From assembly GCA_050015075.1 (NCBI GenBank), contig JBEKCB010000028.1, positions 1-64,000 on the forward strand: 64,000 bases of DNA. The letters are read 5' to 3'. Within the stretch, counting starts at the first letter, position 1. Each line of letters opens with the position of its first letter. Source of the stretch: Candidatus Brocadiia bacterium. GTDB taxonomy: Bacteria > Planctomycetota > Brocadiia > CAIUPP01. The notes beneath the pieces were generated by a model, which searched no databases, was not told the origin of the DNA, and worked only from the letters and a program-made list of their open reading frames with translations. A program made the translations under genes and the position numbers. Shown here piece by piece: positions 28,901 to 39,598 of this stretch.

Positions 28901-31111
28901 CTACGGTTTCGGGGCGGCGGCAGCCGGCGCCGCCGGCGGCGCGGCCGCCTGGGTCAACGCGGCCTCGCGTTCTCCCTGCGGGATGGATGCGAGAGCCATG
29001 CCGTGAATCGCGCAGGTCCGCAGCAGTTCGTCCGGATCGCTGATCAGCGCGCGAAGCTGAGCTTGCTGCTGAGGGCTTATGCGCGGGTTCACCACGAGCA
29101 GTTTCAGGAGCGTTGCGCCGGCTTCGTGCCGGAGGTCGGCCGGTTCGCCGGAGGCGACGAAGGTCTCGAAAACCAGGTCCCGGAGCGCCGGCCGGGGCAG
29201 ATTGGCGATAGCTCGAAGGGCCAGAATCCGCATGTCGGTCGGCTGGTTCGTCAGGAAACCGGCTGTCGCGATACTGAGGTCCGGCGTCGGGTACCGGGTG
29301 GCCGGCGGCAGAACCGCCACGGCCTGGAGAATGCGGCGCACCAGGGCGACATTCTCGCGGACGTCCTCTGCGGCGAGGGTGCCGCGCGCGGAAGCGGCCG
29401 CGTTGGAGATGGCCACGTCGACCTGCGCCGGATCGGCGTTCAGGGCCATGACGCCGGCCACGCGCCCCTTGCTGTCGGCGCGAATTTTTTCGACCTCGCC
29501 GGAGGCTGCGAGCAGGATGATCGGCAGCTTGGACGACCGGACGTCCGCGTGCAGAGAATTTACCACGGCCATGGTCTTGTTCCCTTCGACGCGCACGTCC
29601 ATGACCAGAACGCTGAGAGGCGAGGCGGTTTCCTTGGCGCGCCGCACGGCGTCGCCGGTCACCTTCTGCATTTCGAAAATCACGTCGGCTTCGTGCACCG
29701 CCTTGGCCAGGCGCTGGAACAGGTCTGCGTCGGCGGTGAGGATGGCCGTTCGGGGCCGCACGGGCGCGCCGAGCGCCGCCGCAATCACCCGCACGGTCTC
29801 CTCGGCTCCGCCCAGTTCGCCCATCGGACTCAACTGGATGAGCGCCAGGGCCGCTTCGATTCTCACGAACTTGTCCGGATAAGTCATGGCGGTGACCAGC
29901 GTGTTCTCGTGCGGCGGACGCGGATCGCCGACGCTCGCGAGCGCTTCAACGCAACGGCGCGCCAGCGGCTGGTTGCTGTCCTGGAGCGCGCGGCCGAGGG
30001 CCAGGTAGAGGTACTCCGCGCCGAGGGATTCGTTCGCCGTCTTTATGGCCTGCGGGTCCGGGGCCTTGTCTTTCAAAGCGGCGGATTCTTCGAGCATCAT
30101 GTAGTTGTTGCAGACGTACAGCTCGAGCAGGCTGGGCGAGGAGTGTTTCTGCTGCATTCCGGTCAAGACCGCCTCTGCGGCCATCAGGCGGGGATAAGCC
30201 GCGGCGGACACGGGCTCGAAAACCAGGCGTTCCGCGTAGGTCTTGCCGTCAGGATTCCAGCGCCAGATGCCTCGAGCGGCATCGGAGGTCAGCTCGAGCA
30301 GCCGGGGATCCGCATAGTAATAACGCTGGGCCAGGCTGAAGTAAGCGTCCGCCGCGTTCAGTTGCGCGGCCCGGGCGGGATCGGAAATGATGGCGGCCAG
30401 CGCATCGGAGGCGGCCTTTCTCACGTTTTCGGGGCGAGCGGGATTTCCCGCGATGGCGGCGAGCGGAGCCGCCGCGCGCGCGTCGAGGTTCTTTGCGATC
30501 AGGGTTGCCAGGGTGTCGGCGTCGCTGTCGCCGGCATAACGAAGAGCGACGATCAGCGGAGGCGTGGCCGCCGTGCCCATGGAGCGCAGGGCGGTGAATG
30601 CGGCGAGCTTTCGGCTTCCGGTGGTCATGCGCTCATTGCTAAGCGCTTCGTCGAGCAATTCCGGGACGGCAAAGGCGCCGATGGCCGTCAACTGTCGCAT
30701 GGCGCCCCAGTGCACCGTAATGTCGTCGGAGGTGGCCTTCTCGATCAGGGCCTTGATGGTCGCGGGGTCGTGGGGCAAGTTGGCGGCCTCTTCCTCCGAC
30801 TTGCGCAGGAGGATGCGGATCTTGGCGCCGACTTTCGGCTCCTGGATCATTTTGATGAGGAGCCCCATGTCCGCCTTCTGGCGCAAGTCCATCGCCTCAC
30901 GCGAAGAGGGATTCATCTGCAGAAGCTTGTCCAGCTCTGCGGCGGCCTTGTCGTACTGGCCGTCATTGTAGAACTTGAGGGCGGCGTCGAACTGCTGCTG
31001 CAACTCCGGCCGGTTGGCCTTTTCCTGGGCCGAGGCCGGTATCCAGGATCCGATGCCGAACGACGCCACGACCAAGCAGCACACCACCAGGAGCCTTCGA
31101 CTGGAGCGCAT
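28901..31111 (-). CDS. exported TPR/HEAT-repeat protein with an internal receiver-like fold
   Basis: Signal peptide ending ASA-Q; TPR then HEAT helices; VLVMDVRV...LPIILL segment; AAGGAGG RBS. Confidence 0.75.
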   Translation of the reverse strand: MRSSRRLLVVCCLVVASFGIGSWIPASAQEKANRPELQQQFDAALKFYNDGQYDKAAAELDKLLQMNPSSREAMDLRQKADMGLLIKMIQEPKVGAKIRILLRKSEEEAANLPHDPATIKALIEKATSDDITVHWGAMRQLTAIGAFAVPELLDEALSNERMTTGSRKLAAFTALRSMGTAATPPLIVALRYAGDSDADTLATLIAKNLDARAAAPLAAIAGNPARPENVRKAASDALAAIISDPARAAQLNAADAYFSLAQRYYYADPRLLELTSDAARGIWRWNPDGKTYAERLVFEPVSAAAYPRLMAAEAVLTGMQQKHSSPSLLELYVCNNYMMLEESAALKDKAPDPQAIKTANESLGAEYLYLALGRALQDSNQPLARRCVEALASVGDPRPPHENTLVTAMTYPDKFVRIEAALALIQLSPMGELGGAEETVRVIAAALGAPVRPRTAILTADADLFQRLAKAVHEADVIFEMQKVTGDAVRRAKETASPLSVLVMDVRVEGNKTMAVVNSLHADVRSSKLPIILLAASGEVEKIRADSKGRVAGVMALNADPAQVDVAISNAAASARGTLAAEDVRENVALVRRILQAVAVLPPATRYPTPDLSIATAGFLTNQPTDMRILALRAIANLPRPALRDLVFETFVASGEPADLRHEAGATLLKLLVVNPRISPQQQAQLRALISDPDELLRTCAIHGMALASIPQGEREAALTQAAAPPAAPAAAAPKP

Positions 31112-31181
31112 GCGTTTGTTCCTCCTTGTTTGCCGCGCACCCTTCGCGCACAGATTCCCGGGCATCCGATCCGCGGGAGAC

Positions 31182-32556: not shown

Positions 32557-32586
32557 AGTATAAGGTGCCCTTCGAAGGGCTGTCAA
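32557..32586 (-). promoter_or_regulatory. lysA promoter TTGACA-N18-TATACT with a 14-bp palindrome GCCCTTCGAAGGGC in the spacer
   Basis: Read directly from the minus strand. Confidence 0.6.
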
Positions 32587-32658
32587 GCGGAAAATTGGTC
32601 ACCGGCCTGCGAACTCCGCCGCTAAGGGACCGGGCCGCCCGAAAGTGACCGTCGCGCG

Positions 32659-32687
32659 TTGACAAGTCCGGCTTCTCCAACTATACT
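32659..32687 (+). promoter_or_regulatory. sigma70-type promoter TTGACA-N17-TATACT
   Basis: Almost perfect consensus, 35 nt upstream of the 32722 ATG. Confidence 0.7.
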
Positions 32688-32721: not shown

Positions 32722-33855
32722 ATGGCCAGCCGACCGGAAATTCCTGAACGGACTCCCATCGACAAGGTCGAGGTCGAGTACGAGCGCGCCTCGGGGGCCT
32801 CGAAGGCGCGGAGACCCGGCTTCACCCGCGTGCGGCTCCTGGCGATCAGCCAGACTGAGATCGAACTGGCCACGCGCGAGGCCATACCGATCGGTGAGAA
32901 GCTCAACTTCACTCTGGACGTCAAGGGCGTGAAGAACTTCGTGAGGGCCGCGGGCGAAATCAAGAAGAGGACGGTTCAAATCTCCGTTCTGAAGCAACCG
33001 GCGTTCTCCGTCACGGTTCAGATCGGGAAGCTCACCAGCGACCAGACGGCCAAGATGGCATGGGCCGAAGAGCAATTGATGCCGCGGCAGCGAATGGCGC
33101 CGCGGCGACGGGAAGAGGAGCCACCCGCCGCTGCCGCCCCGGCTGCGGCCGGCCAACCTGCACCGCCGGCGGCGGCGACGGCCGTCGCCGAGGGACCGGC
33201 CCCGGTGGAAACCGTCCCGGCCGCGGATGAAACAGCCCCGGGCGTCAACCGGCCCGTCGCATTGCTCCAGTTGCTCGAGGCGCTCGACAAGTTCGAAGTG
33301 AACGATGACCTGGTCATGGCCATCGTGGAAGCGGCGGAGGCGGGGCTGGACGTCGAAACGCTCTATGCGGCGAAGACGGAAGAACTCATCGAGGAGTCCG
33401 AGGAATCGTCTGTCGCGGATGTGGTCATGCCGTCGGACGGCATCGTCCGGCCGATGAACGTCTATCGCTTCGCCGACAACACGCGGCTGTATTTCTCCGA
33501 GGCGAATGCGGTCATCGGCCCGCCCTCGGGGCTTGTTTATCTTTCCCGGATTCAGACGCCGCAAACCTGCTTTGCGCTCGAACTGGGATCGGACAGCATG
33601 ATGAATGCCGCCGGCGGGCGGAGCTTCAAGCCGGGGAGCATCCTGATTTTCTCGAGCGACGCCAAGGTGGAAAACGGCGACTTTGCCTACGTCAAGACGC
33701 GCATGGGCGACGAATTCGCCCAGGTCTTCATGGAAAAGAACGAGGACTTGCGGCTTCGCCCGCTGAATCCTCAATACCGCGAACACCTGGCGCGCCGCAC
33801 TGAAATCCAGATCGTGTGCAAGCTGGTCGGCTGGTACGAGGACCTGACCGGCTGA
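32722..33855 (+). CDS. degenerate PilZ-like domain + LexA/S24 peptidase-like domain protein
   Basis: C-terminal FALELGSDSM..PGSILIF..ENGDF..LRPLNPQY..IVCKLV; N-terminal PilZ-like beta pattern. Confidence 0.75.
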   Translation: MASRPEIPERTPIDKVEVEYERASGASKARRPGFTRVRLLAISQTEIELATREAIPIGEKLNFTLDVKGVKNFVRAAGEIKKRTVQISVLKQPAFSVTVQIGKLTSDQTAKMAWAEEQLMPRQRMAPRRREEEPPAAAAPAAAGQPAPPAAATAVAEGPAPVETVPAADETAPGVNRPVALLQLLEALDKFEVNDDLVMAIVEAAEAGLDVETLYAAKTEELIEESEESSVADVVMPSDGIVRPMNVYRFADNTRLYFSEANAVIGPPSGLVYLSRIQTPQTCFALELGSDSMMNAAGGRSFKPGSILIFSSDAKVENGDFAYVKTRMGDEFAQVFMEKNEDLRLRPLNPQYREHLARRTEIQIVCKLVGWYEDLTG

Positions 33856-33875: not shown

Positions 33876-34145
33876 ATGGCAGAGGCCGAAAACCGCGAAA
33901 AGGTCATGTTGCTCACGGAGAGCTTCCGCATTCTGGGGCAAATGCGCCTGGGCCCCGACGGAACGATCTGGGACTTCAAGCATCGCGCCAGCGAAGGCTT
34001 TGCCACGGTCTACGATGCCCAATGTTTCCGCCACAGCGACGGCAAGCGCATGTACGATGCCACCGTCGTCGAGGTGAGCCGTCACGCGGTGGTGGCCGTC
34101 TTCCGGCAGCAGGATATCGCCTTCATCAGAAAGGAACCGACATGA
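33876..34145 (+). CDS. small beta-rich hypothetical protein (DUF6812-like)
   Basis: KVMLLTESFRILGQMRL..FATVYDA pattern; AAGGAGG RBS. Confidence 0.7.
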   Translation: MAEAENREKVMLLTESFRILGQMRLGPDGTIWDFKHRASEGFATVYDAQCFRHSDGKRMYDATVVEVSRHAVVAVFRQQDIAFIRKEPT

Positions 34146-34651
34146 GCGTCCGGGAATTTCTCGCGGAACACGCGACGGCGAGCCGGGCGGCGCTGGTTTC
34201 GACGGTCCTGTTCGTCTTCGGGTCGGTCATCGGCTGCAGCAGCTCGGTGAGCGATCAAGATATTGAACGGGGCATTGACCATCCCGGCAGGGAGGCAGCC
34301 ACGATCGCCGAGGCCCGCGCAATTGACATCGGCGATGAAATCAACCGGCTGAAGCAACAGCAGGATGACCTCGAAGGGAAGCGATCGGACAGCCTGAAGC
34401 TGGCCGCCTCCTATCGAACCAAGTCGGCCTCAGTCTGGTCCGACCCGTCGGTGTCCGAAGGGCAGCGTCCCGCCCTGGCGGACCAGTTCAACACGCTGGC
34501 CGACGAGAACGAGGGGAAGGCGTATCGCTACGGACAGATTGCCGACGCGTGCGCCTCGCGCATCAACCTGCTCGAATCCCGACGTCACGATCAATTGCGC
34601 CGGGCGGAAAATTATCAAAGCATGGGCGTCCCGTCGCCGGAAGCGGAATAA
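34142..34651 (+). CDS. hypothetical coiled-coil lipoprotein
   Basis: Hydrophobic stretch with lipobox VIGC; heptad-like helices; ATGA coupling to the upstream gene. Confidence 0.7.
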   Translation: MSVREFLAEHATASRAALVSTVLFVFGSVIGCSSSVSDQDIERGIDHPGREAATIAEARAIDIGDEINRLKQQQDDLEGKRSDSLKLAASYRTKSASVWSDPSVSEGQRPALADQFNTLADENEGKAYRYGQIADACASRINLLESRRHDQLRRAENYQSMGVPSPEAE

Positions 34652-34696
34652 ACCGGAATGCGGGCCGACGAGGCGCGTGCGGGGTGCCGACTTTTC

Positions 34697-35038
34697 ATGA
34701 CGACCAATCCGGTTTCGCCGGCGCGGTGGTTCCCGCCGGACGAGTTCTATACCGCCGACCTGTGCCTGCGCTGCGGCGTGTGCTGCGGATCCACCGACGG
34801 GCACCCGTGCGAACACCTGCGGCGCGACGCGGACGGGCGCTACTCCTGCGAGATCTACGAGACCCGGCTGGGATATCACCGGACGGTGGACGGTCGTGCC
34901 TTCATCTGCGTGCAGATTCGAAAAGTGATCGAGACCACCGGCGGTTACGCCGCCTGCGGGTACGTGGCGGAGATCCGGCGCGCGCGCAAGGAGCTGGGGC
35001 AGAAATCTTCCGACGTGGGGCGGCGGACGAAACCGTGA
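34697..35038 (+). CDS. CxxCxxCC cysteine-cluster protein (YkgJ-like, putative Fe-S/Zn)
   Basis: CLRCGVCC..PCEHL..CEIYETR..C..CGY. Confidence 0.75.
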   Translation: MTTNPVSPARWFPPDEFYTADLCLRCGVCCGSTDGHPCEHLRRDADGRYSCEIYETRLGYHRTVDGRAFICVQIRKVIETTGGYAACGYVAEIRRARKELGQKSSDVGRRTKP

Positions 35039-35101: not shown

Positions 35102-35728
35102 TCAGCGCCTCTTCGCGAGCCGTTCCTTGACCTTCCTCATGACGATGAACTCGTCGCGCTCGCGCTCCTCCAACGCATCGGTAATGAACCGCAGCGTCTC
35201 GACGTAGGCCGGGATGAAAATCTTTTCGAGCGCGTTGACGCGGCGCTGCGTCTTTCGAACCTCGCGGGCCAGCCGGAAGACGGCGTTCTGGATTTCCGCC
35301 AGGCGGTCTATGCTCTCCATGGCGCCGGCGAAAGCCGCCGTGACTTCGTCCAGCGTGGTGTTCCCGGCCATCAGGCTGGTCGCGGGGCCGGCGGCGGGAT
35401 GGTCGGCCGAAATGGTCGGCAGATAAATGCCCATCAGCGCGCGGGTCGAGACCGCGGCGGAATGCTCGGGGCGCGGCGCGTCCGCGTCCGAGGTCAGCCG
35501 CAGCGCGCCGTTCCGGATCAGCGCCTCGCGGAGCGCCCCGAAAGCCGCATCCAGTTTCTCCTGGACTTCCTTCTGAATGTTTTTGGTCTTCTGGACCGTC
35601 CCCATCAGCTCGAGGATGAGGATCTGGCGCTTCTCCTCGAGCATCTCGTATCCTTCGCGGGCGAAGCGCAGGTCGCGCTTCAGGCGCAGCAGGCTCGATT
35701 TGGTGGGCGGAACGTCCAGCTTCGCCAT
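35102..35728 (-). CDS. atpD: V/A-type ATPase subunit D
   Basis: PTKSSLLRLK, GYEMLEEKR, KTQRRVNALE, LEERERDEF. Confidence 0.95.
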   Translation of the reverse strand: MAKLDVPPTKSSLLRLKRDLRFAREGYEMLEEKRQILILELMGTVQKTKNIQKEVQEKLDAAFGALREALIRNGALRLTSDADAPRPEHSAAVSTRALMGIYLPTISADHPAAGPATSLMAGNTTLDEVTAAFAGAMESIDRLAEIQNAVFRLAREVRKTQRRVNALEKIFIPAYVETLRFITDALEERERDEFIVMRKVKERLAKRR

Positions 35729-37152
35729 TATTTCTCTTTCCGGTAATGTTCGTCCAGATCCGCGTCGCTCAGGCGGTGCAGCTCTTCCCTGGGCAGGATG
35801 GAGATCACGTCCCAGCCCAATTCAAGCGTCTCGGTGATGGTGCGGTCGTCGTACTCCTGCTGCATCAGATATCGGCGCTCGAACTGCTCTCCGAATTTCA
35901 GATATTGCTTGTCCAGCGGCGGCAATTCCTCTTCCCCGATGACCGCCGCCAGCGACTTGATCTGCTTGACCTTGGCGTAGGCGGCGAAGAGCTGCGCGGC
36001 CAGGCGCCCATGGTCCTTGCGGGTTTTCCCCTCGCCGATGCCGTCCTTCATAATGCGCGAGAGGCTCGGCAGCACGGCGATCGGCGGGTAAATCCCATGC
36101 CCGACGAGTTCGCGGTCGAGAACGATCTGGCCTTCGGTGATATAGCCGGTGAGGTCCGGGACCGGGTGCGAGATGTCGTCCGACGGCATCGTCAGGATCG
36201 GAACTTGCGTGATGGATCCCGGGCTGCCGGTGATGCGTCCGGCGCGCTCGTAGATCGAGGCCAGGTCGCTGTAGAGGTAGCCGGGATATCCTTTTCGCGC
36301 GGGGATCTCGCCGTTGGCGATGGCCACCTCGCGCAGCGATTCGCAGTAGTTGGTCATGTCCGTGAGGATCACCAGGATGTGCATGCCGATGTCGAACGCC
36401 AGGTGCTCCGCGAGCGTGAGCGCCGAGCGGGGCGTGAGCAGGCGTTCGACGGACGGCGCGTCCGCCAGGCTCAGGAACATCGCGACTCTCGACAGCGCGC
36501 CGGAGTCCTCGAAGTTCTTGACGAAGTACTGGGCGACGTCGTGCTTGACGCCCATGCCGGCGAAGATGACGGCGAACTCGACGTTCTCACCGACGATCTT
36601 CGCCTGACGGGCGATCTGCGCGGCGACCTGGTTGTGCGGCAGGCCGTTGCCGCTGAAGATGGGCAGCTTCTGGCCGCGCACCAGCGTGTTCAAGCCGTCG
36701 AGCGCGGAGATGCCGGTCTGGATGAAGTCGCGCGGGTAGACGCGCGAGTAGGGGTTCATCGGCTCGCCGTTGATGTCGCGACGCACGCCGCCGATCGGCG
36801 CAGGGCCGCCGTCGGTCGGGCGGCCCAGCCCGTCGAAGACGCGCCCGAGCATGGATCGCGAAACTTCCAGGTGCAGCGATTCTCCCAGGAACCGCACCTT
36901 CGTCCGCAGGTTGCTCAGCCCGGTGGTCCCTTCGAGGACCTGCACCACCGCGCTGGTGTCCGCCGTGTCGAGCACGCGGCCGACGCGCCGGTTCCCGGAC
37001 GGGTCGGTGATCTCGACCACTTCGTCGAAACTGACGGCGTGCCGCGTCTGAACCATCAGCAGCGGGCCGTCAATGCGGGAGACGCCCACGTATTCCATTC
37101 CCTGATCGGAAAGGGTCGCAGGGGACGAGTCCGGCTGAGGCATTTGAGACAT
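35728..37152 (-). CDS. atpB: V/A-type ATPase subunit B
   Basis: [48 protein letters not shown]; start at 37152 or 37167. Confidence 0.95.
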
Positions 37153-37163
37153 TTCTCCTCCGG

Positions 37164-38972
37164 TCATTTCAGGTCCTTCTCGAGGGCGTCGAGCTGGCCG
37201 CGAACAAGGTTCTCCAGCGCGTCGAGTTCCTCAGGCTTCGAATTCGGGATCGTGGATTTCGCCCGGATGATTTGCTGGATGCAGGGCAGGGCGCGAATCT
37301 GGACAAGCGTCACGCCGCGTTCGATGAGACGGTTCCCGTGTTCGAGGAAGTCAATGATGATCTTGAGCAGCCGCACTTGCTTGCGGGGATCGCAGAACAT
37401 GTCCACCTCGTCGAACGCGCTCTGCTGGAGGAAACCGTCTCTGAGGATCTCCGCGATGAGCAGGATAAGGCGCTGCGAGTCGGGCAGCACGTCGGGGCCG
37501 ACCAGCTTGACGATCTCCTGGAGACGGTCCTCCTGCTGGAGCGTGTCAATGGCCTTGGCGCGCAGGGCGCGCCAGTCGGCGGCCACGCCTTCCCACCAAT
37601 GCGTCACGTCGTCCACGTATTCGCTGTAGCTCGTGAGCCAATTGATCGCCGGGTAATGCCGCGAGTAGGCCAGGTCGGTGTCCAGCGCCCAGAAGCACCG
37701 GACGAAGCGGCGCGTGTGCTGGGTCACCGGCTCGGAGAAATCGCCGCCCATCGGAGAGACGGCGCCGATGATCGAGACGGACCCGCGGCGTCCGCCCAGC
37801 GTGACGACGGAGCCGGCGCGCTCGTAGAACTGGGCCAGGCGCGTTCCGAGGTACGCCGGATAACCTTCCTCGGCCGGCATTTCCTCGAGGCGGCCGCTCA
37901 ACTCCCGCAGCGCTTCGGCCCAGCGCGAGGTCGAGTCGGCCATCACGCCCACGGCGTATCCCATGTCGCGGTAGTATTCCGCCAGCGTGATGCCGGTATA
38001 GATGGAGACCTCGCGCGCCGCGACGGGCATGTTCGAGGTGTTGGCGATCATGACCGTGCGCTCCATCAGCGGGTGGCCGGACTTCGGGTCCACCAGTTCG
38101 GGGAACGAGGTGAGCACGTCGGTCATCTCGTTGCCGCGCTCGCCGCAGCCGATGTAGATGATGATGTCCGCGTCGCACCATTTCGCGAGCGAGTGCTGTG
38201 TCATCGTCTTGCCCGTGCCGAACCCGCCCGGGATCATCGCCGTGCCGCCCTTGGCGATGGGGAAGAACATGTCAATCACGCGCAGGCCGCTGATGAGCGG
38301 GGTGGTGACCATTTCGCGCTCGCGGTACGGCCGCGTCATGCGCGAGGCCCATTCCTGGACCAGCTTCAGGGAGCGGTCGCCGGCGGACGTCTGCACGACG
38401 CAGATCTCCTGCTCGATGGTGTAATCGCCGGGCGCGACGATTTTTCGCACCGTGCCGCTGCAGTCCGGCGGCACGAGCACCCGGTGCTCGATCAGCGGCG
38501 TCTCCGGCAGCGTCCCGATGATCTGCCCGGCCTGGACTTTTTCGCCTTCCTTGACCGAAGGCGTGAAGCGCCACTGGCGCGACTTGTTCAGGGCGGGGAG
38601 TTTCTCTCCGCGCGGGATGAAGGCGCCCGCGCTCTCGGCGATCTCGCGCAGCGGGCGCTGGATGCCGTCGTAGATGTTCCCCATCAGCCCCGGGCCGAGG
38701 TCAACGGAGAGCAGTCTTCCGGTCGGGTAGACCGGCTGGCCGGGCCGCAGGCCGGAGGTGTTTTCGTAGACCTGAACGGTGCCGACGTCGTCCACGGCGC
38801 GGATGAGCTCGCCGATGAGCCGCCGCGGACCGACCTCGATGACCTCGAACATTTGTGCGCCGCGCAGGCCGACGGCCTCGACGATCGGGCCGTTTACGCG
38901 CGTGATCCTGGCGTGCGCCGTACCCGGCGCACTCTCGCTGTGCGACGTTGGCTGCGATGTCGGTGAATTCAT
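37164..38972 (-). CDS. atpA: V/A-type ATPase catalytic subunit A
   Basis: [37 protein letters not shown]; no intein. Confidence 0.96.
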
Positions 38973-39598
38973 GCTTCCTCGAATAATATCGGGATCGTGA
39001 GCCTCTGCAGGCCGGGCCGGAGCCGGCGCAGGCGCTCCTCAAAGGTATTGTCCCACCGCAATTTTCCGTCCGCCGATTCCACGACGACTCCCCTGGCCGG
39101 GCCGGGCTGCACCTTCACGCTGAGGTTGACCGTCTTGCCCTCTTTCTGGAGCGCGGCGGCGATTTCCGAGGCCAGGGAGCTTTCGTCAAGATTCGCGCCG
39201 GGCGCGGCCGTGACTTTCACGGCCAGGTCGCCCGCGGGCATCTGGCGCGCCGCTGCGACGGCCAGGCGGACCACGTCTTGTCTGTAGGCCTCGCCCGAAA
39301 TCTCCACGAGACGCGCCGCGGCTTGCTCGAGCGCCGTCTGGATCACCGTGTCTCTGGCGTGCAGCTTGCCGCGCGCAACCTGCTGCTCCACCATCCGCAG
39401 CGTCATCTCCGCGCGCTTCCCCGCGCGAGCGCGATGCTCGGCGAGGATCTTCTCTGCTTCGGACTGGGCGGTGGCCTTGGCCTGGGCCAGGATTTTCTCC
39501 GCTTCGGCCTTGGCCGCGCTCAGGATTTCGTCCGCCTTGCGTTTCGCGTCCTGCAGAATCTCGTCCGCCAGGATTTTCTGCGCATCCGCTGTTGCCAT
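38969..39598 (-). CDS. atpE: V/A-type ATPase subunit E
   Basis: N-terminal stalk helix; GVVVESADGKLRWDNTFEERL. Confidence 0.9.
   Translation of the reverse strand: MATADAQKILADEILQDAKRKADEILSAAKAEAEKILAQAKATAQSEAEKILAEHRARAGKRAEMTLRMVEQQVARGKLHARDTVIQTALEQAAARLVEISGEAYRQDVVRLAVAAARQMPAGDLAVKVTAAPGANLDESSLASEIAAALQKEGKTVNLSVKVQPGPARGVVVESADGKLRWDNTFEERLRRLRPGLQRLTIPILFEEA

What the first reader, a model, noticed from the sequence alone, without database searches (positions are those of the whole stretch)
32722..33855. Unusual fusion: degenerate PilZ-like barrel + LexA/S24 domain without catalytic Lys, cleavage site or HTH
Seen: the C-terminal S24 pattern keeps the Ser (SDSM) but has DEFAQV where (A/T)xKR is expected, and NVYRFAD where the Ala-Gly cleavage loop should be. 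There is no DNA-binding HTH. The N-terminus follows PilZ spacing (PERTP..RLLAISQTE..IPIGEKLNFTL..AAGEI..FSVTVQI..LT) with both c-di-GMP motifs eroded. An Ala/Pro linker and an acidic helical segment join them. Inference: a non-cleavable adaptor that could dimerise with LexA/CI-like repressors or bind RecA filaments, linking SOS-type and PilZ-type (pilus/motility) interactions. I do not recognise this architecture.
Basis: partly seen in the sequence, partly recalled or inferred. Interest (0 to 1): 0.72.

Follow-up and report, generated by a model that had tools for sequence, protein, structure and literature searches.

The report
Doubly degenerate PilZ–LexA-like fusion protein
This peat Planctomycetota gene joins a c-di-GMP-sensor-type barrel that has lost its ligand motifs to a LexA/lambda-repressor-type domain that has lost its self-cutting residues, so it most likely works as a binding adaptor and not as a sensor or a protease.

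Summary
Window 32722-33855 (+) encodes a 377-aa protein with these parts:
- a PilZ-fold barrel (VIA Z up to 10.9 to PilZ structures);
- an Ala/Pro linker;
- an acidic three-helix module;
- an S24 (LexA/lambda cI) domain (Pfam 38.1 bits; Foldseek E 3e-8 to lambda cI).

There is no HTH. The catalytic Lys column holds Ala333, with 0 Lys among 29 family rows. The Ser is kept in this protein but in only 16 of 29 rows. The Ala-Gly columns read Asp-Asn.

The PilZ motifs are eroded: RxxxR has become E6...R10, and (D/N)xSxxG has become A41-I-S-Q-T-E46.

The architecture is not an orphan. It belongs to a wider PilZ–S24 family: 23 of 60 scanned search hits carry both Pfam domains. Most of those relatives keep canonical c-di-GMP motifs and have Arg in place of Lys. 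The window's clade is a derived branch found in one order of Ca. Brocadiia. In that order the gene always lies in a cluster with a very conserved 89-aa protein and a CxxCxxCC protein.

Best reading: a non-catalytic adaptor, probably blind to c-di-GMP.

This scan had already noted a sister clade on other DNA (e1-1149431). No paper on this fusion turned up in my searches.

The parts
32659..32687 (+). Sigma-70-type promoter TTGACA-17-TATACT for the operon. A mirror promoter for lysA lies at 32586-32557 on the minus strand.
   Evidence: 11 of 12 consensus matches. 2 sites were found in the region against a mean of 0.3 in shuffles.
32722..33855 (+). CDS of the PilZ-like / S24-like fusion protein (377 aa, P0001).
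   Evidence: 26 full-length homologs at 45-91% identity.
32722..33081 (+). Residues 1-120: PilZ-fold barrel plus C-terminal helix with eroded c-di-GMP motifs. E6...R10 stands for RxxxR (32737-32751). A41-I-S43-Q-T-E46 stands for (D/N)xSxxG (32842-32859).
   Evidence: AF2 pLDDT is about 86-91 over most of this domain. VIA Z 7.8-10.9 to 31 PilZ entries. hhalign to canonical PilZ-S24 proteins. Motif columns. No Pfam PilZ hit.
33082..33249 (+). Residues 121-176: Ala/Pro-rich linker, predicted disordered.
   Evidence: pLDDT 31-40. A+P 30 of 56; mean pairwise identity 0.49.
33250..33387 (+). Residues 177-222: acidic three-helix module (RPVALLxLLxxLxKFxVxDDLxxAxxEAAExGxDVExLY), the best-conserved part of the protein.
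   Evidence: Helices at 179-190, 195-206 and 212-222, pLDDT 81-91. Mean pairwise identity 0.76 over residues 177-216. No PDB sequence match. Not aligned to the HTH of HTH-S24 relatives.
33388..33441 (+). Residues 223-240: acidic, poorly conserved, disordered spacer.
   Evidence: pLDDT 46-54. Mean pairwise identity 0.37 over residues 217-240.
33442..33837 (+). Residues 241-372: S24 (LexA/lambda cI/UmuD) fold, including a strand in the place of the cleavage-site region. Ser292 is at 33595-33597. Ala333, in the catalytic Lys column, is at 33718-33720. D252-N253 stand in the Ala-Gly columns.
   Evidence: Pfam PF00717, 38.1 bits. pLDDT 90-98. Foldseek 2hnf E 3.1e-8. hhalign probability 99.9 to HTH-S24 proteins. 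Column counts.
33876..34145 (+). s89: an 89-aa protein of no curated family, preceded by the ribosome-binding site AAGGAGG. It is co-located with the fusion gene across the order.
   Evidence: It was found in 5 of 41 relatives, the same five genomes that hold the fusion gene. 44 clusters, all at 64% identity or more. The Atlas gives a lead to DUF6812 (0.97), but Pfam gives no hit.
34142..34651 (+). p169: a predicted lipoprotein (VIGC lipobox, read from the sequence). Its start overlaps the s89 stop (ATGA). It is poorly conserved, and in G004 a 507-aa protein with a TonB-like layout stands in its place.
   Evidence: No Pfam family.
34658..35038 (+). p126: a Cys-rich protein with a CxxCxxCC motif (CLRCGVCC), conserved in the cluster across the order.
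   Evidence: 56-70% identity in L006, L002 and L007, and 59% in G004. The Atlas gives a lead to PF03692 at 0.88. No Pfam hit.

Best explanation
The gene encodes a cytoplasmic adaptor that does not act as an enzyme. It descends from a c-di-GMP receptor fused to a LexA/cI-type domain.

**Shown**
- The protein has a PilZ-fold barrel, a flexible Ala/Pro linker, an acidic three-helix module and an S24-fold domain.
- Across the family the S24 domain has no catalytic Lys, no conserved Ser and no Ala-Gly site.
- The two c-di-GMP motifs of PilZ are eroded in this clade, while sister clades keep them.
- All three folded parts are conserved.
- The gene lies in a conserved cluster with s89 and a CxxCxxCC protein.

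**Inferred**
- The S24-like domain no longer cuts. It serves as a protein-binding surface, most likely for homodimerisation, as in the C-terminal domains of LexA, lambda cI, UmuD' and phage 186 CI.
- The PilZ-like barrel no longer binds c-di-GMP. Like the ligand-blind PilZ proteins of Xanthomonas and Pseudomonas, it has become a protein-binding module.
- Together with the acidic helical module it holds partner proteins, probably products of the same operon (s89, p126), in a process tied to the cell envelope.

The output of this process is unknown.
For: **Folds.** PilZ: VIA Z 7.8-10.9 for 31 PilZ entries over residues 11-129; the top 11 Foldseek rows are all PilZ. S24: Pfam 38.1 bits; Foldseek 2hnf E 3.1e-8, then LexA, UmuD' and 186 CI.

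**Dead active site.** The Lys column holds A 19, G 6, V 2, T 2 in 29 rows of the clade. The Ser column has S in only 16 of 29 rows. No row has A-G. hhalign places the K of FKQvF opposite A333.

**Eroded PilZ motifs.** The first Arg column is E in 22 of 26 rows and R in 1. The Gly column is G in 1 of 26 rows. A same-order homolog (G004) has RQYQR and NISQGG, with Pfam PilZ at 40.6 bits.

**Derived state.** On the S24 tree the clade is nested in a 39-row clade (support 99) together with P0033-P0035, which have Pfam PilZ hits, and P0036, which matched only my own PilZ profile.

**Purifying constraint.** Mean pairwise identity is 0.62 (PilZ-like), 0.76 (helical), 0.65-0.66 (S24), against 0.37-0.49 in the linkers.

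**Not a loss of the signalling system.** The genome has 11 GGDEF matches and 4 Pfam PilZ matches elsewhere.

**Linkage.** The order fusion gene, s89, variable envelope gene, p126 is kept in G000-G003 and, with one different middle gene, in G004. s89 was found in exactly the same 5 of 41 relatives.
Against: - No binding partner, oligomeric state or ligand has been shown. The only complex prediction (fusion protein with s89) gave no verdict.
- R4 (25 of 26 rows) and R10 (26 of 26 rows) are conserved. Ser292 is kept in the window protein itself. A non-canonical ligand site or some residual chemistry therefore cannot be excluded from sequence.
- The five genomes that share the cluster are close kin, so co-occurrence of the fusion gene and s89 is weak evidence of a functional tie.
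- Neither Pfam nor the PDB sequence search gave any clue to what the helical module or s89 does.
Confidence: 0.55

Rival explanations
1. It is still a c-di-GMP (or other nucleotide) receptor that binds its ligand through a non-canonical site. The S24-like domain then converts binding into a change of oligomeric state.
For: - The PilZ fold is intact.
- R4 and R10 are nearly invariant and S43 is kept in 13 of 26 rows.
- Sister clades keep canonical motifs.
- The genome has 11 GGDEF matches.
Against: - The first Arg of RxxxR is Glu in 22 of 26 rows, a charge reversal. The Gly of (D/N)xSxxG is present in 1 of 26 rows.
- The Pfam PilZ model gives no hit even at E 5.
- From established work on YcgR, Alg44 and PlzD (recalled, not read here), changing these arginines abolishes binding.
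Confidence: 0.12
2. It modulates the SOS response. The dead S24 domain either heterodimerises with LexA or sits on activated RecA filaments as a decoy that cannot be cut.
For: - The S24 fold, with a strand in the place of the cleavage-site region, superposes on lambda cI 101-229, on LexA and on RecA-bound forms.
- The genome encodes two LexA paralogs above the TIGR00498 cut-off.
Against: - No SOS, repair or recA gene lies in the conserved cluster.
- The nearest S24 relatives are XRE-HTH proteins of a Ser/Arg or Ser/Lys type, not LexA. NCBIfam lexA scores 19.8 bits against a cut-off of 110.95.
- No binding test was possible.
Confidence: 0.08
3. It is a transcription factor, and the three-helix module binds DNA in place of the lost HTH.
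For: - The three helices sit directly upstream of the S24 domain, where LexA/cI proteins carry their DNA-binding domain.
- MAFFT placed the last HTH helices of HTH-S24 proteins over this module.
Against: - The module is strongly acidic: D+E 9 against K+R 2 in 40 residues.
- hhalign against HTH-S24 proteins did not extend into it.
- There is no Pfam HTH hit and no PDB sequence match.
Confidence: 0.05
4. It keeps slow self-cleavage or trans-cleavage, using Ser292 with another general base.
For: Ser292 and the invariant Met293 are present in the window protein. K325 is conserved in the clade (K 25, R 4 of 29 rows).
Against: - Ser is replaced in 13 of 29 rows of the clade, and no row has a Lys in the catalytic column.
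- The K325 column is Arg or Lys in canonical S24 proteins that also have their own catalytic Lys, so it is a structural position.
- No row has an A-G site.
Confidence: 0.03

Closest known systems
C-terminal domains of lambda cI, LexA and UmuD (MEROPS S24, Pfam PF00717)
   Same: Same fold, including a strand in the place of the cleavage-site region. Foldseek gives 2hnf at E 3.1e-8 with TM 0.76 on the target, then LexA and UmuD'. Pfam scores 38.1 bits. The GxSM-type loop with invariant Met and the ...F-x-Q-V-F strand are recognisable.
   Different: It has no catalytic Lys (Ala333), the Ser is not conserved, there is no Ala-Gly site and there is no DNA-binding domain. A PilZ-fold domain stands at the N-terminus instead.
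Phage 186 CI repressor C-terminal domain (PDB 2fkd/2fjr)
   Same: An S24-like fold that, from my recall of the published work (not read here), does not self-cleave and serves oligomerisation. It appears among the Foldseek hits (2fjr E 1.4e-2, 2fkd E 1.9e-2). It is the best precedent for a non-cutting S24 fold used as an assembly surface.
   Different: 186 CI is a phage repressor with an N-terminal HTH. The structural match is weaker than to lambda cI or LexA. No oligomeric state is known for the window protein.
Ligand-blind PilZ adaptors: Xanthomonas citri PilZ (XAC1133) and P. aeruginosa PilZ (PDB 4fou, 7lkm, 7lkq)
   Same: A PilZ fold that lacks the c-di-GMP motifs and works by binding proteins (FimX, PilB), as the entry titles say. 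VIA gives Z 5.5-6.1 to these chains.
   Different: Those are single-domain proteins of the type IV pilus system. The window protein matches ligand-binding PilZ domains better (Z up to 10.9). It has no pilus genes nearby and carries two further domains.
Canonical PilZ-S24 proteins of Planctomycetota, including the one in earlier scan note e1-1149431
   Same: Same architecture and collinear homology over 338 columns (hhalign probability 100). Lys is also absent (0 of 25 rows). On the S24 tree 24 of 25 fall in one 63-row clade together with the window's clade (support 85, below the tree's 95 mark).
   Different: They keep RxxxR and (D/N)xSxxG and give Pfam PilZ hits. 19 of 25 have Arg in the Lys column and 14 of 25 keep Ser. 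Most lack the acidic three-helix module. In the 3 loci looked at, the downstream gene encodes a ~600-aa TPR protein, not s89 and p126.

Membership tests
Peptidase S24 (LexA-like self-cleaving serine peptidases) | S24 fold / PF00717 match | tested here: met
   Pfam 38.1 bits against a cut-off of 23.3. Foldseek E 3.1e-8 to lambda cI, then LexA and UmuD'. hhalign probability 99.9 to HTH-S24 proteins.
Peptidase S24 (LexA-like self-cleaving serine peptidases) | Catalytic Lys (general base; LexA K156, cI K192) | tested here: not met
   The column holds Ala333. Lys is present in 0 of 29 clade rows and 0 of 25 other PilZ-S24 rows, against 36 of 89 other S24 rows.
Peptidase S24 (LexA-like self-cleaving serine peptidases) | Catalytic Ser (LexA S119, cI S149) | tested here: inconclusive
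   Ser292 is present in the window protein, but only 16 of 29 clade rows have Ser (T 7, N 2, and one each of H, G, I, A).
Peptidase S24 (LexA-like self-cleaving serine peptidases) | Ala-Gly (or Cys-Gly) scissile bond in the cleavage-site region | tested here: not met
   The columns read D252-N253. 0 of 29 clade rows have A-G, against 25 of 89 other rows with A-G and 10 with G-G.
Peptidase S24 (LexA-like self-cleaving serine peptidases) | Self-cleavage at high pH or with RecA* | not testable with these tools
   This needs purified protein.
LexA / phage CI-type repressor | N-terminal DNA-binding (winged-helix or XRE HTH) domain | tested here: not met
   No HTH family in Pfam. NCBIfam lexA scores 19.8 bits against a cut-off of 110.95. 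hhalign to HTH-S24 proteins covers only residues 235-376. Some JGI records name homologs 'LexA' or 'phage repressor protein C'.
PilZ domain (PF07238) | Six/seven-stranded barrel with C-terminal helix (PilZ fold) | tested here: met
   AF2 pLDDT is about 86-91 over most of residues 11-120. VIA Z 7.8-10.9, rmsd 2.4-5.4, 78-108 residues aligned, for 31 PilZ entries.
PilZ domain (PF07238) | Homology to PilZ by sequence | tested here: met
   There is no direct Pfam hit. hhalign of the clade against PilZ-S24 proteins with Pfam PilZ hits is collinear from residue 1 (probability 100, E 4.4e-40). BLASTP to the G004 homolog spans residues 38-369.
PilZ domain (PF07238) | RxxxR motif | tested here: not met
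   It reads E6-I-P-E-R10. The first column is E in 22 of 26 rows and R in 1. The second is R in 26 of 26 rows.
PilZ domain (PF07238) | (D/N)xSxxG motif | tested here: not met
   It reads A41-I-S43-Q-T-E46. D or N stands in 8 of 26 rows, S in 13 of 26 and G in 1 of 26.
PilZ domain (PF07238) | c-di-GMP binding | not testable with these tools
   This needs a binding assay.

The most novel reading that the evidence does not exclude
PilZ-S24 proteins are an undescribed output class of c-di-GMP signalling, in which a LexA/cI-type domain serves as a switchable assembly surface in place of an HTH-linked autoprotease. The window's clade would be the end point of that line: a receptor that has let go of both its ligand and its chemistry and has become a constitutive scaffold. 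This scaffold would form a fixed complex with the very conserved 89-aa protein s89 and the CxxCxxCC protein, and would control an envelope-anchored partner.
Probability: 0.25. Interest if true: 0.65.

Novelty: new variant of a known kind. Interest (0 to 1): 0.5.

Why it matters
Both domain families are textbook. Their fusion was not found in print in my searches, and automatic annotation mislabels these proteins as LexA or phage repressors.

The family offers a natural series:
1. an XRE-HTH protein with a Ser/Lys S24 domain;
2. a canonical PilZ fused to a Ser/Arg S24 domain;
3. a degenerate PilZ fused to a fully dead S24 domain.

This series shows how a self-cleaving repressor scaffold can be taken over by second-messenger signalling and then turned into a pure binding module. 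It gives c-di-GMP researchers a new effector architecture to test. For annotators it is a caution: an S24 hit is not a LexA.

The practical weight is modest. The organisms are uncultured peat Planctomycetota, and the output is unknown.

Tried and rejected
- **Complex prediction.** The fusion protein (alignment A2) with s89 (alignment A4) gave no verdict, score 0.00 against a mark of 0.32. This is no evidence either way.
- **Helical module as an HTH remnant.** MAFFT had laid HTH helices over the three-helix module. hhalign A2 against A6 did not extend beyond the S24 part, and phmmer of residues 175-226 against PDB gave only a chance-level row at E 1.7. The idea is not supported.
- **s89.** Pfam gave only a sub-threshold GNAT row for the window copy and nothing for two homologs. 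NCBIfam gave no hit for the window copy, and a PDB profile search gave none. The Atlas gave only a lead to DUF6812.
- **p126.** No Pfam family. The Atlas lead to CxxCxxCC scored 0.88.
- **Full-length AF2 model.** The shallow 26-row alignment left the S24 part poorly modelled, mean pLDDT 57.6. I refolded the C-terminal half with 143 rows.
- **First pass over the phylum loci.** A regular-expression filter missed most ORFs. I replaced it with HMMs built from my own alignments.
- **RNA evidence.** Contigs from two metatranscriptome runs of one study covered only 34041-34238 and 34316-34633. They did not cover the fusion gene. A part without cover says nothing, and DNA carry-over is possible.
- **Database names and accessions.** I could not see how NCBI names the distant PilZ-S24 proteins or which taxa outside Planctomycetota hold them.
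- **Earlier notes of this scan.** The look-up by place returned nothing.
- **Literature.**
  - 'PilZ' with 'Peptidase_S24': 0 papers.
  - 'PilZ domain' / 'S24' / 'domain architectures': listing only, nothing on this fusion.
  - 'PilZ' / 'LexA' / 'c-di-GMP' / 'S24': 27 papers, 12 listed, none on this fusion judging by title and abstract.
  - 'DUF6812': 0 papers.
  - The main text of the Galperin and Chou PilZ preprint has no S24, LexA or peptidase term (passages only). Its supplements are closed and might list the architecture.
Full report
**The gene.** Window 32722-33855 (+) is an open frame of 377 codons.
- The longer TTG start at 32659 is the -35 hexamer of a near-consensus promoter, TTGACA-17-TATACT at 32659-32687. 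A mirror promoter for the divergent lysA gene lies at 32586-32557.
- A word-indexed search of 5.8 billion proteins gave 29 proteins at E <= 0.001.
- I aligned the query with 25 full-length homologs (45-91% identity) as A1. I left out the fragments P0015, P0028 and P0029.
- All rows start at the same MA(I/S)R. The ATG start is therefore right and the gene is real.

**C-terminal domain.**
- Pfam gives Peptidase_S24 over residues 278-368 (E 1.4e-9, 38.1 bits, cut-off 23.3).
- NCBIfam lexA scores 19.8 bits against a cut-off of 110.95.
- phmmer against PDB finds the lambda cI C-terminal domain at E 4.1e-5.
- The first AF2 model, built on A1, was poor in this part (mean pLDDT 57.6).
- Refolding residues 170-377 with 143 rows gave mean pLDDT 86.5. 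It shows three helices (179-190, 195-206, 212-222), a disordered acidic spacer, and a beta domain at 244-372 with pLDDT 90-98.
- Foldseek puts lambda cI 101-229 first (2hnf, E 3.1e-8, 137 columns). LexA from four species, UmuD' and, more weakly, phage 186 CI follow.

**Catalytic residues.**
- The nearest HTH-S24 relatives carry G(D/N)SM and F-K-Q-V-F.
- hhalign of the family against 21 such proteins (probability 99.9, E 7.3e-34, 135 columns) sets their Lys opposite Ala333. The HMMER pairwise alignment is shifted by two residues.
- Counts on the 143-row alignment:

| Group | Rows | Lys column | Ser column | A-G at the scissile columns | Ser and Lys together |
|---|---|---|---|---|---|
| Window's clade | 29 | A 19, G 6, V 2, T 2 | S 16, T 7, N 2, one each H, G, I, A | 0 | 0 |
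| Other PilZ-S24 | 25 | R 19, no K | S 14 | 2 | 0 |
| Remaining rows (mostly HTH-S24) | 89 | K 36, R 40 | S 67 | 25 | 32 |

- The whole PilZ-S24 family therefore lacks the general base. The window's clade has also released the Ser from constraint.
- Lys325 (YVKT) stands in a column that canonical S24 proteins fill with Arg or Lys beside their own catalytic Lys (R 53, K 10 of 89 rows). I read it as a structural position. I could not measure distances in the model.

**N-terminal domain.**
- Pfam finds no PilZ in the window protein, even at E 5.
- Residues 11-120 are modelled mostly at pLDDT 86-91, as seven strands and a helix.
- The top 11 Foldseek rows are all PilZ domains: MotI, PP4397, BcsA, YcgR, PlzA, Alg44 (E 1.4e-3 to 1.9e-2).
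- VIA-align gives Z 7.8-10.9 for 31 PilZ entries over residues 11-129.
- A homolog in another family of the same order (G004; 31% identity over residues 38-369, E 2e-44) has Pfam PilZ at 40.6 bits and S24 at 23.5 bits, with RQYQR and NISQGG intact.
- hhalign of A1 against 16 PilZ-S24 proteins outside the clade is collinear over 338 columns (probability 100, E 4.4e-40). It maps RxxxR to E6...R10 and NxSxxG to A41-I-S43-Q-T-E46.
- In the clade the first Arg column is Glu in 22 of 26 rows, and the Gly column is Gly in 1 of 26 rows.
- The genome still has 11 GGDEF matches and 4 Pfam PilZ matches elsewhere. The erosion is therefore specific to this protein.

**The wider family.**
- A profile of 27 rows (A2) run against 1.84 billion representatives found 228 proteins at E <= 0.001.
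- I scanned 60 of the 150 listed proteins against Pfam, mostly the longer ones. 23 carry both PilZ and Peptidase_S24 at E <= 0.01. Most of the rest carry an XRE-type HTH plus S24.
- In 401 Planctomycetota genomes, 66 matched at E <= 1e-10 under a stricter first look, so this count is a floor. Most of the listed matches cover only the S24 part.
- Of the 29 loci I examined with my own HMMs, 5 have PilZ plus S24. All 5 come from one family, f85.
- A FastTree of the S24 part (127 columns, so many forks are unresolved) gives a 63-row clade with support 85, below the tree's 95 mark. It holds 29 of 29 clade rows, 24 of 25 other PilZ rows and 10 of 89 other rows.
- Six of those ten (P0037-P0042) fall inside the 39-row subclade. 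They are 160-268 aa long and may be cut at the N-terminus.
- The window's clade is nested in a 39-row clade (support 99) with the canonical-PilZ proteins P0033-P0035 and with P0036.
- This fits a single fusion followed by later erosion of PilZ. It does not prove that order of events.

**Context.**
- Within the order the gene is single-copy. Near full-length matches occur in 5 of 41 relatives searched (G000-G004). In G001 the gene is split over two contig ends.
- None of the 13 genomes of family f4 matched. The four other matching genomes, three of family f5 and one of f7, match only the S24 part.
- Downstream lie s89 (ribosome-binding site AAGGAGG, 20 bases after the stop), p169 (start overlapping the s89 stop) and p126.
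- s89 is 69-73% identical where the fusion protein is about 50% identical. p126 is 56-70% identical.
- In G004 the order is fusion gene, a 507-aa protein with a TonB-like layout, s89 (58%), p126 (59%).
- s89 was found in the same 5 of 41 genomes. It forms a narrow family of 44 clusters, all at 64% identity or more.
- These genomes are close kin, so the shared pattern is only suggestive.
- In the f85 clade the downstream gene encodes a ~600-aa TPR protein instead, in 3 of 3 loci by BLAST; 2 of them were scanned by Pfam. This agrees with earlier scan note e1-1149431.

**Organism and habitat.**
- Close relatives are titled Candidatus Brocadiia and Planctomycetota MAGs.
- The stretch stands in 22 peat-metagenome DNA runs, 13 of them holding half or more of its sampled words. 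Four of the 22 may be the source of this DNA.

**Mechanism.**
- Shown: the folds, the missing residues, the eroded motifs, the constraint on all three folded parts (mean pairwise identity 0.62, 0.76 and 0.65 against 0.37-0.49 in the linkers), and the conserved cluster.
- Inferred: the S24-like part is an assembly or partner-binding surface, the PilZ-like barrel is a ligand-blind protein-binding module, and the partners are operon products.
- I put 0.55 on this adaptor reading. The rivals are a non-canonical ligand site (0.12), SOS modulation (0.08), DNA binding by the helical module (0.05) and residual cleavage (0.03).

**Novelty.** The domains are known. My searches turned up no paper on the fusion. 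This scan had already noted the sister clade on other DNA. The new points here are:
- the doubly degenerate branch;
- its acidic helical module;
- its different conserved partners;
- the graded series from Ser/Lys through Ser/Arg to no dyad at all.

Noticed in passing
window 35102-39598 (-): A V/A-type ATPase gene row (subunits D, B, A, E by Pfam) lies convergent with the operon. It is syntenic in the two family relatives looked at (L048, L049).
   Followed up: partly
window 32557-32687: Two near-consensus sigma-70-type promoters stand back to back (each 11 of 12 matches) in the 166-base gap between lysA and the fusion gene.
   Followed up: partly
A5 rows outside the PilZ-S24 group (proteins P0065-P0177): Among 89 mostly XRE-HTH S24 proteins, 40 have Arg and only 36 have Lys in the catalytic base column, many of them with Ser kept. 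A large Ser/Arg subtype of S24 repressors may therefore cleave differently or not at all.
   Followed up: no
G000:C2:237130-237729 and G000:C37:20912-21502: The genome has two LexA paralogs above the TIGR00498 cut-off (193.8 and 156.4 bits). Two further S24 proteins lie on C14 (197-aa frame) and C1 (301-aa frame).
   Followed up: no
window 33876-34145: s89 is far more conserved than its neighbours (20 invariant columns in 31 rows, e.g. LGPDG..WDFKH, AQCF, DGKR). It has no Pfam, NCBIfam or PDB sequence match.
   Followed up: partly
window 34041-34633: Contigs from two metatranscriptome runs of one study cover the end of s89, the s89/p169 junction (34098-34238, no differences) and p169. This is a weak hint that these genes are transcribed together. 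DNA carry-over is not excluded.
   Followed up: partly
window 28901-31165 (-): A 754-aa protein with HEAT repeats (Pfam HEAT_2). A TPR-like N-terminal stretch can be read from the sequence. It lies upstream of lysA and is 88% identical in the same-genus relative (L003).
   Followed up: no
L047:7229-8749 (G004): A 507-aa protein with an N-terminal membrane anchor, a long Pro/Glu/Lys-rich spacer and a C-terminal globular part (TonB-like layout, no Pfam hit). It replaces the lipoprotein p169 between the fusion gene and s89.
   Followed up: no
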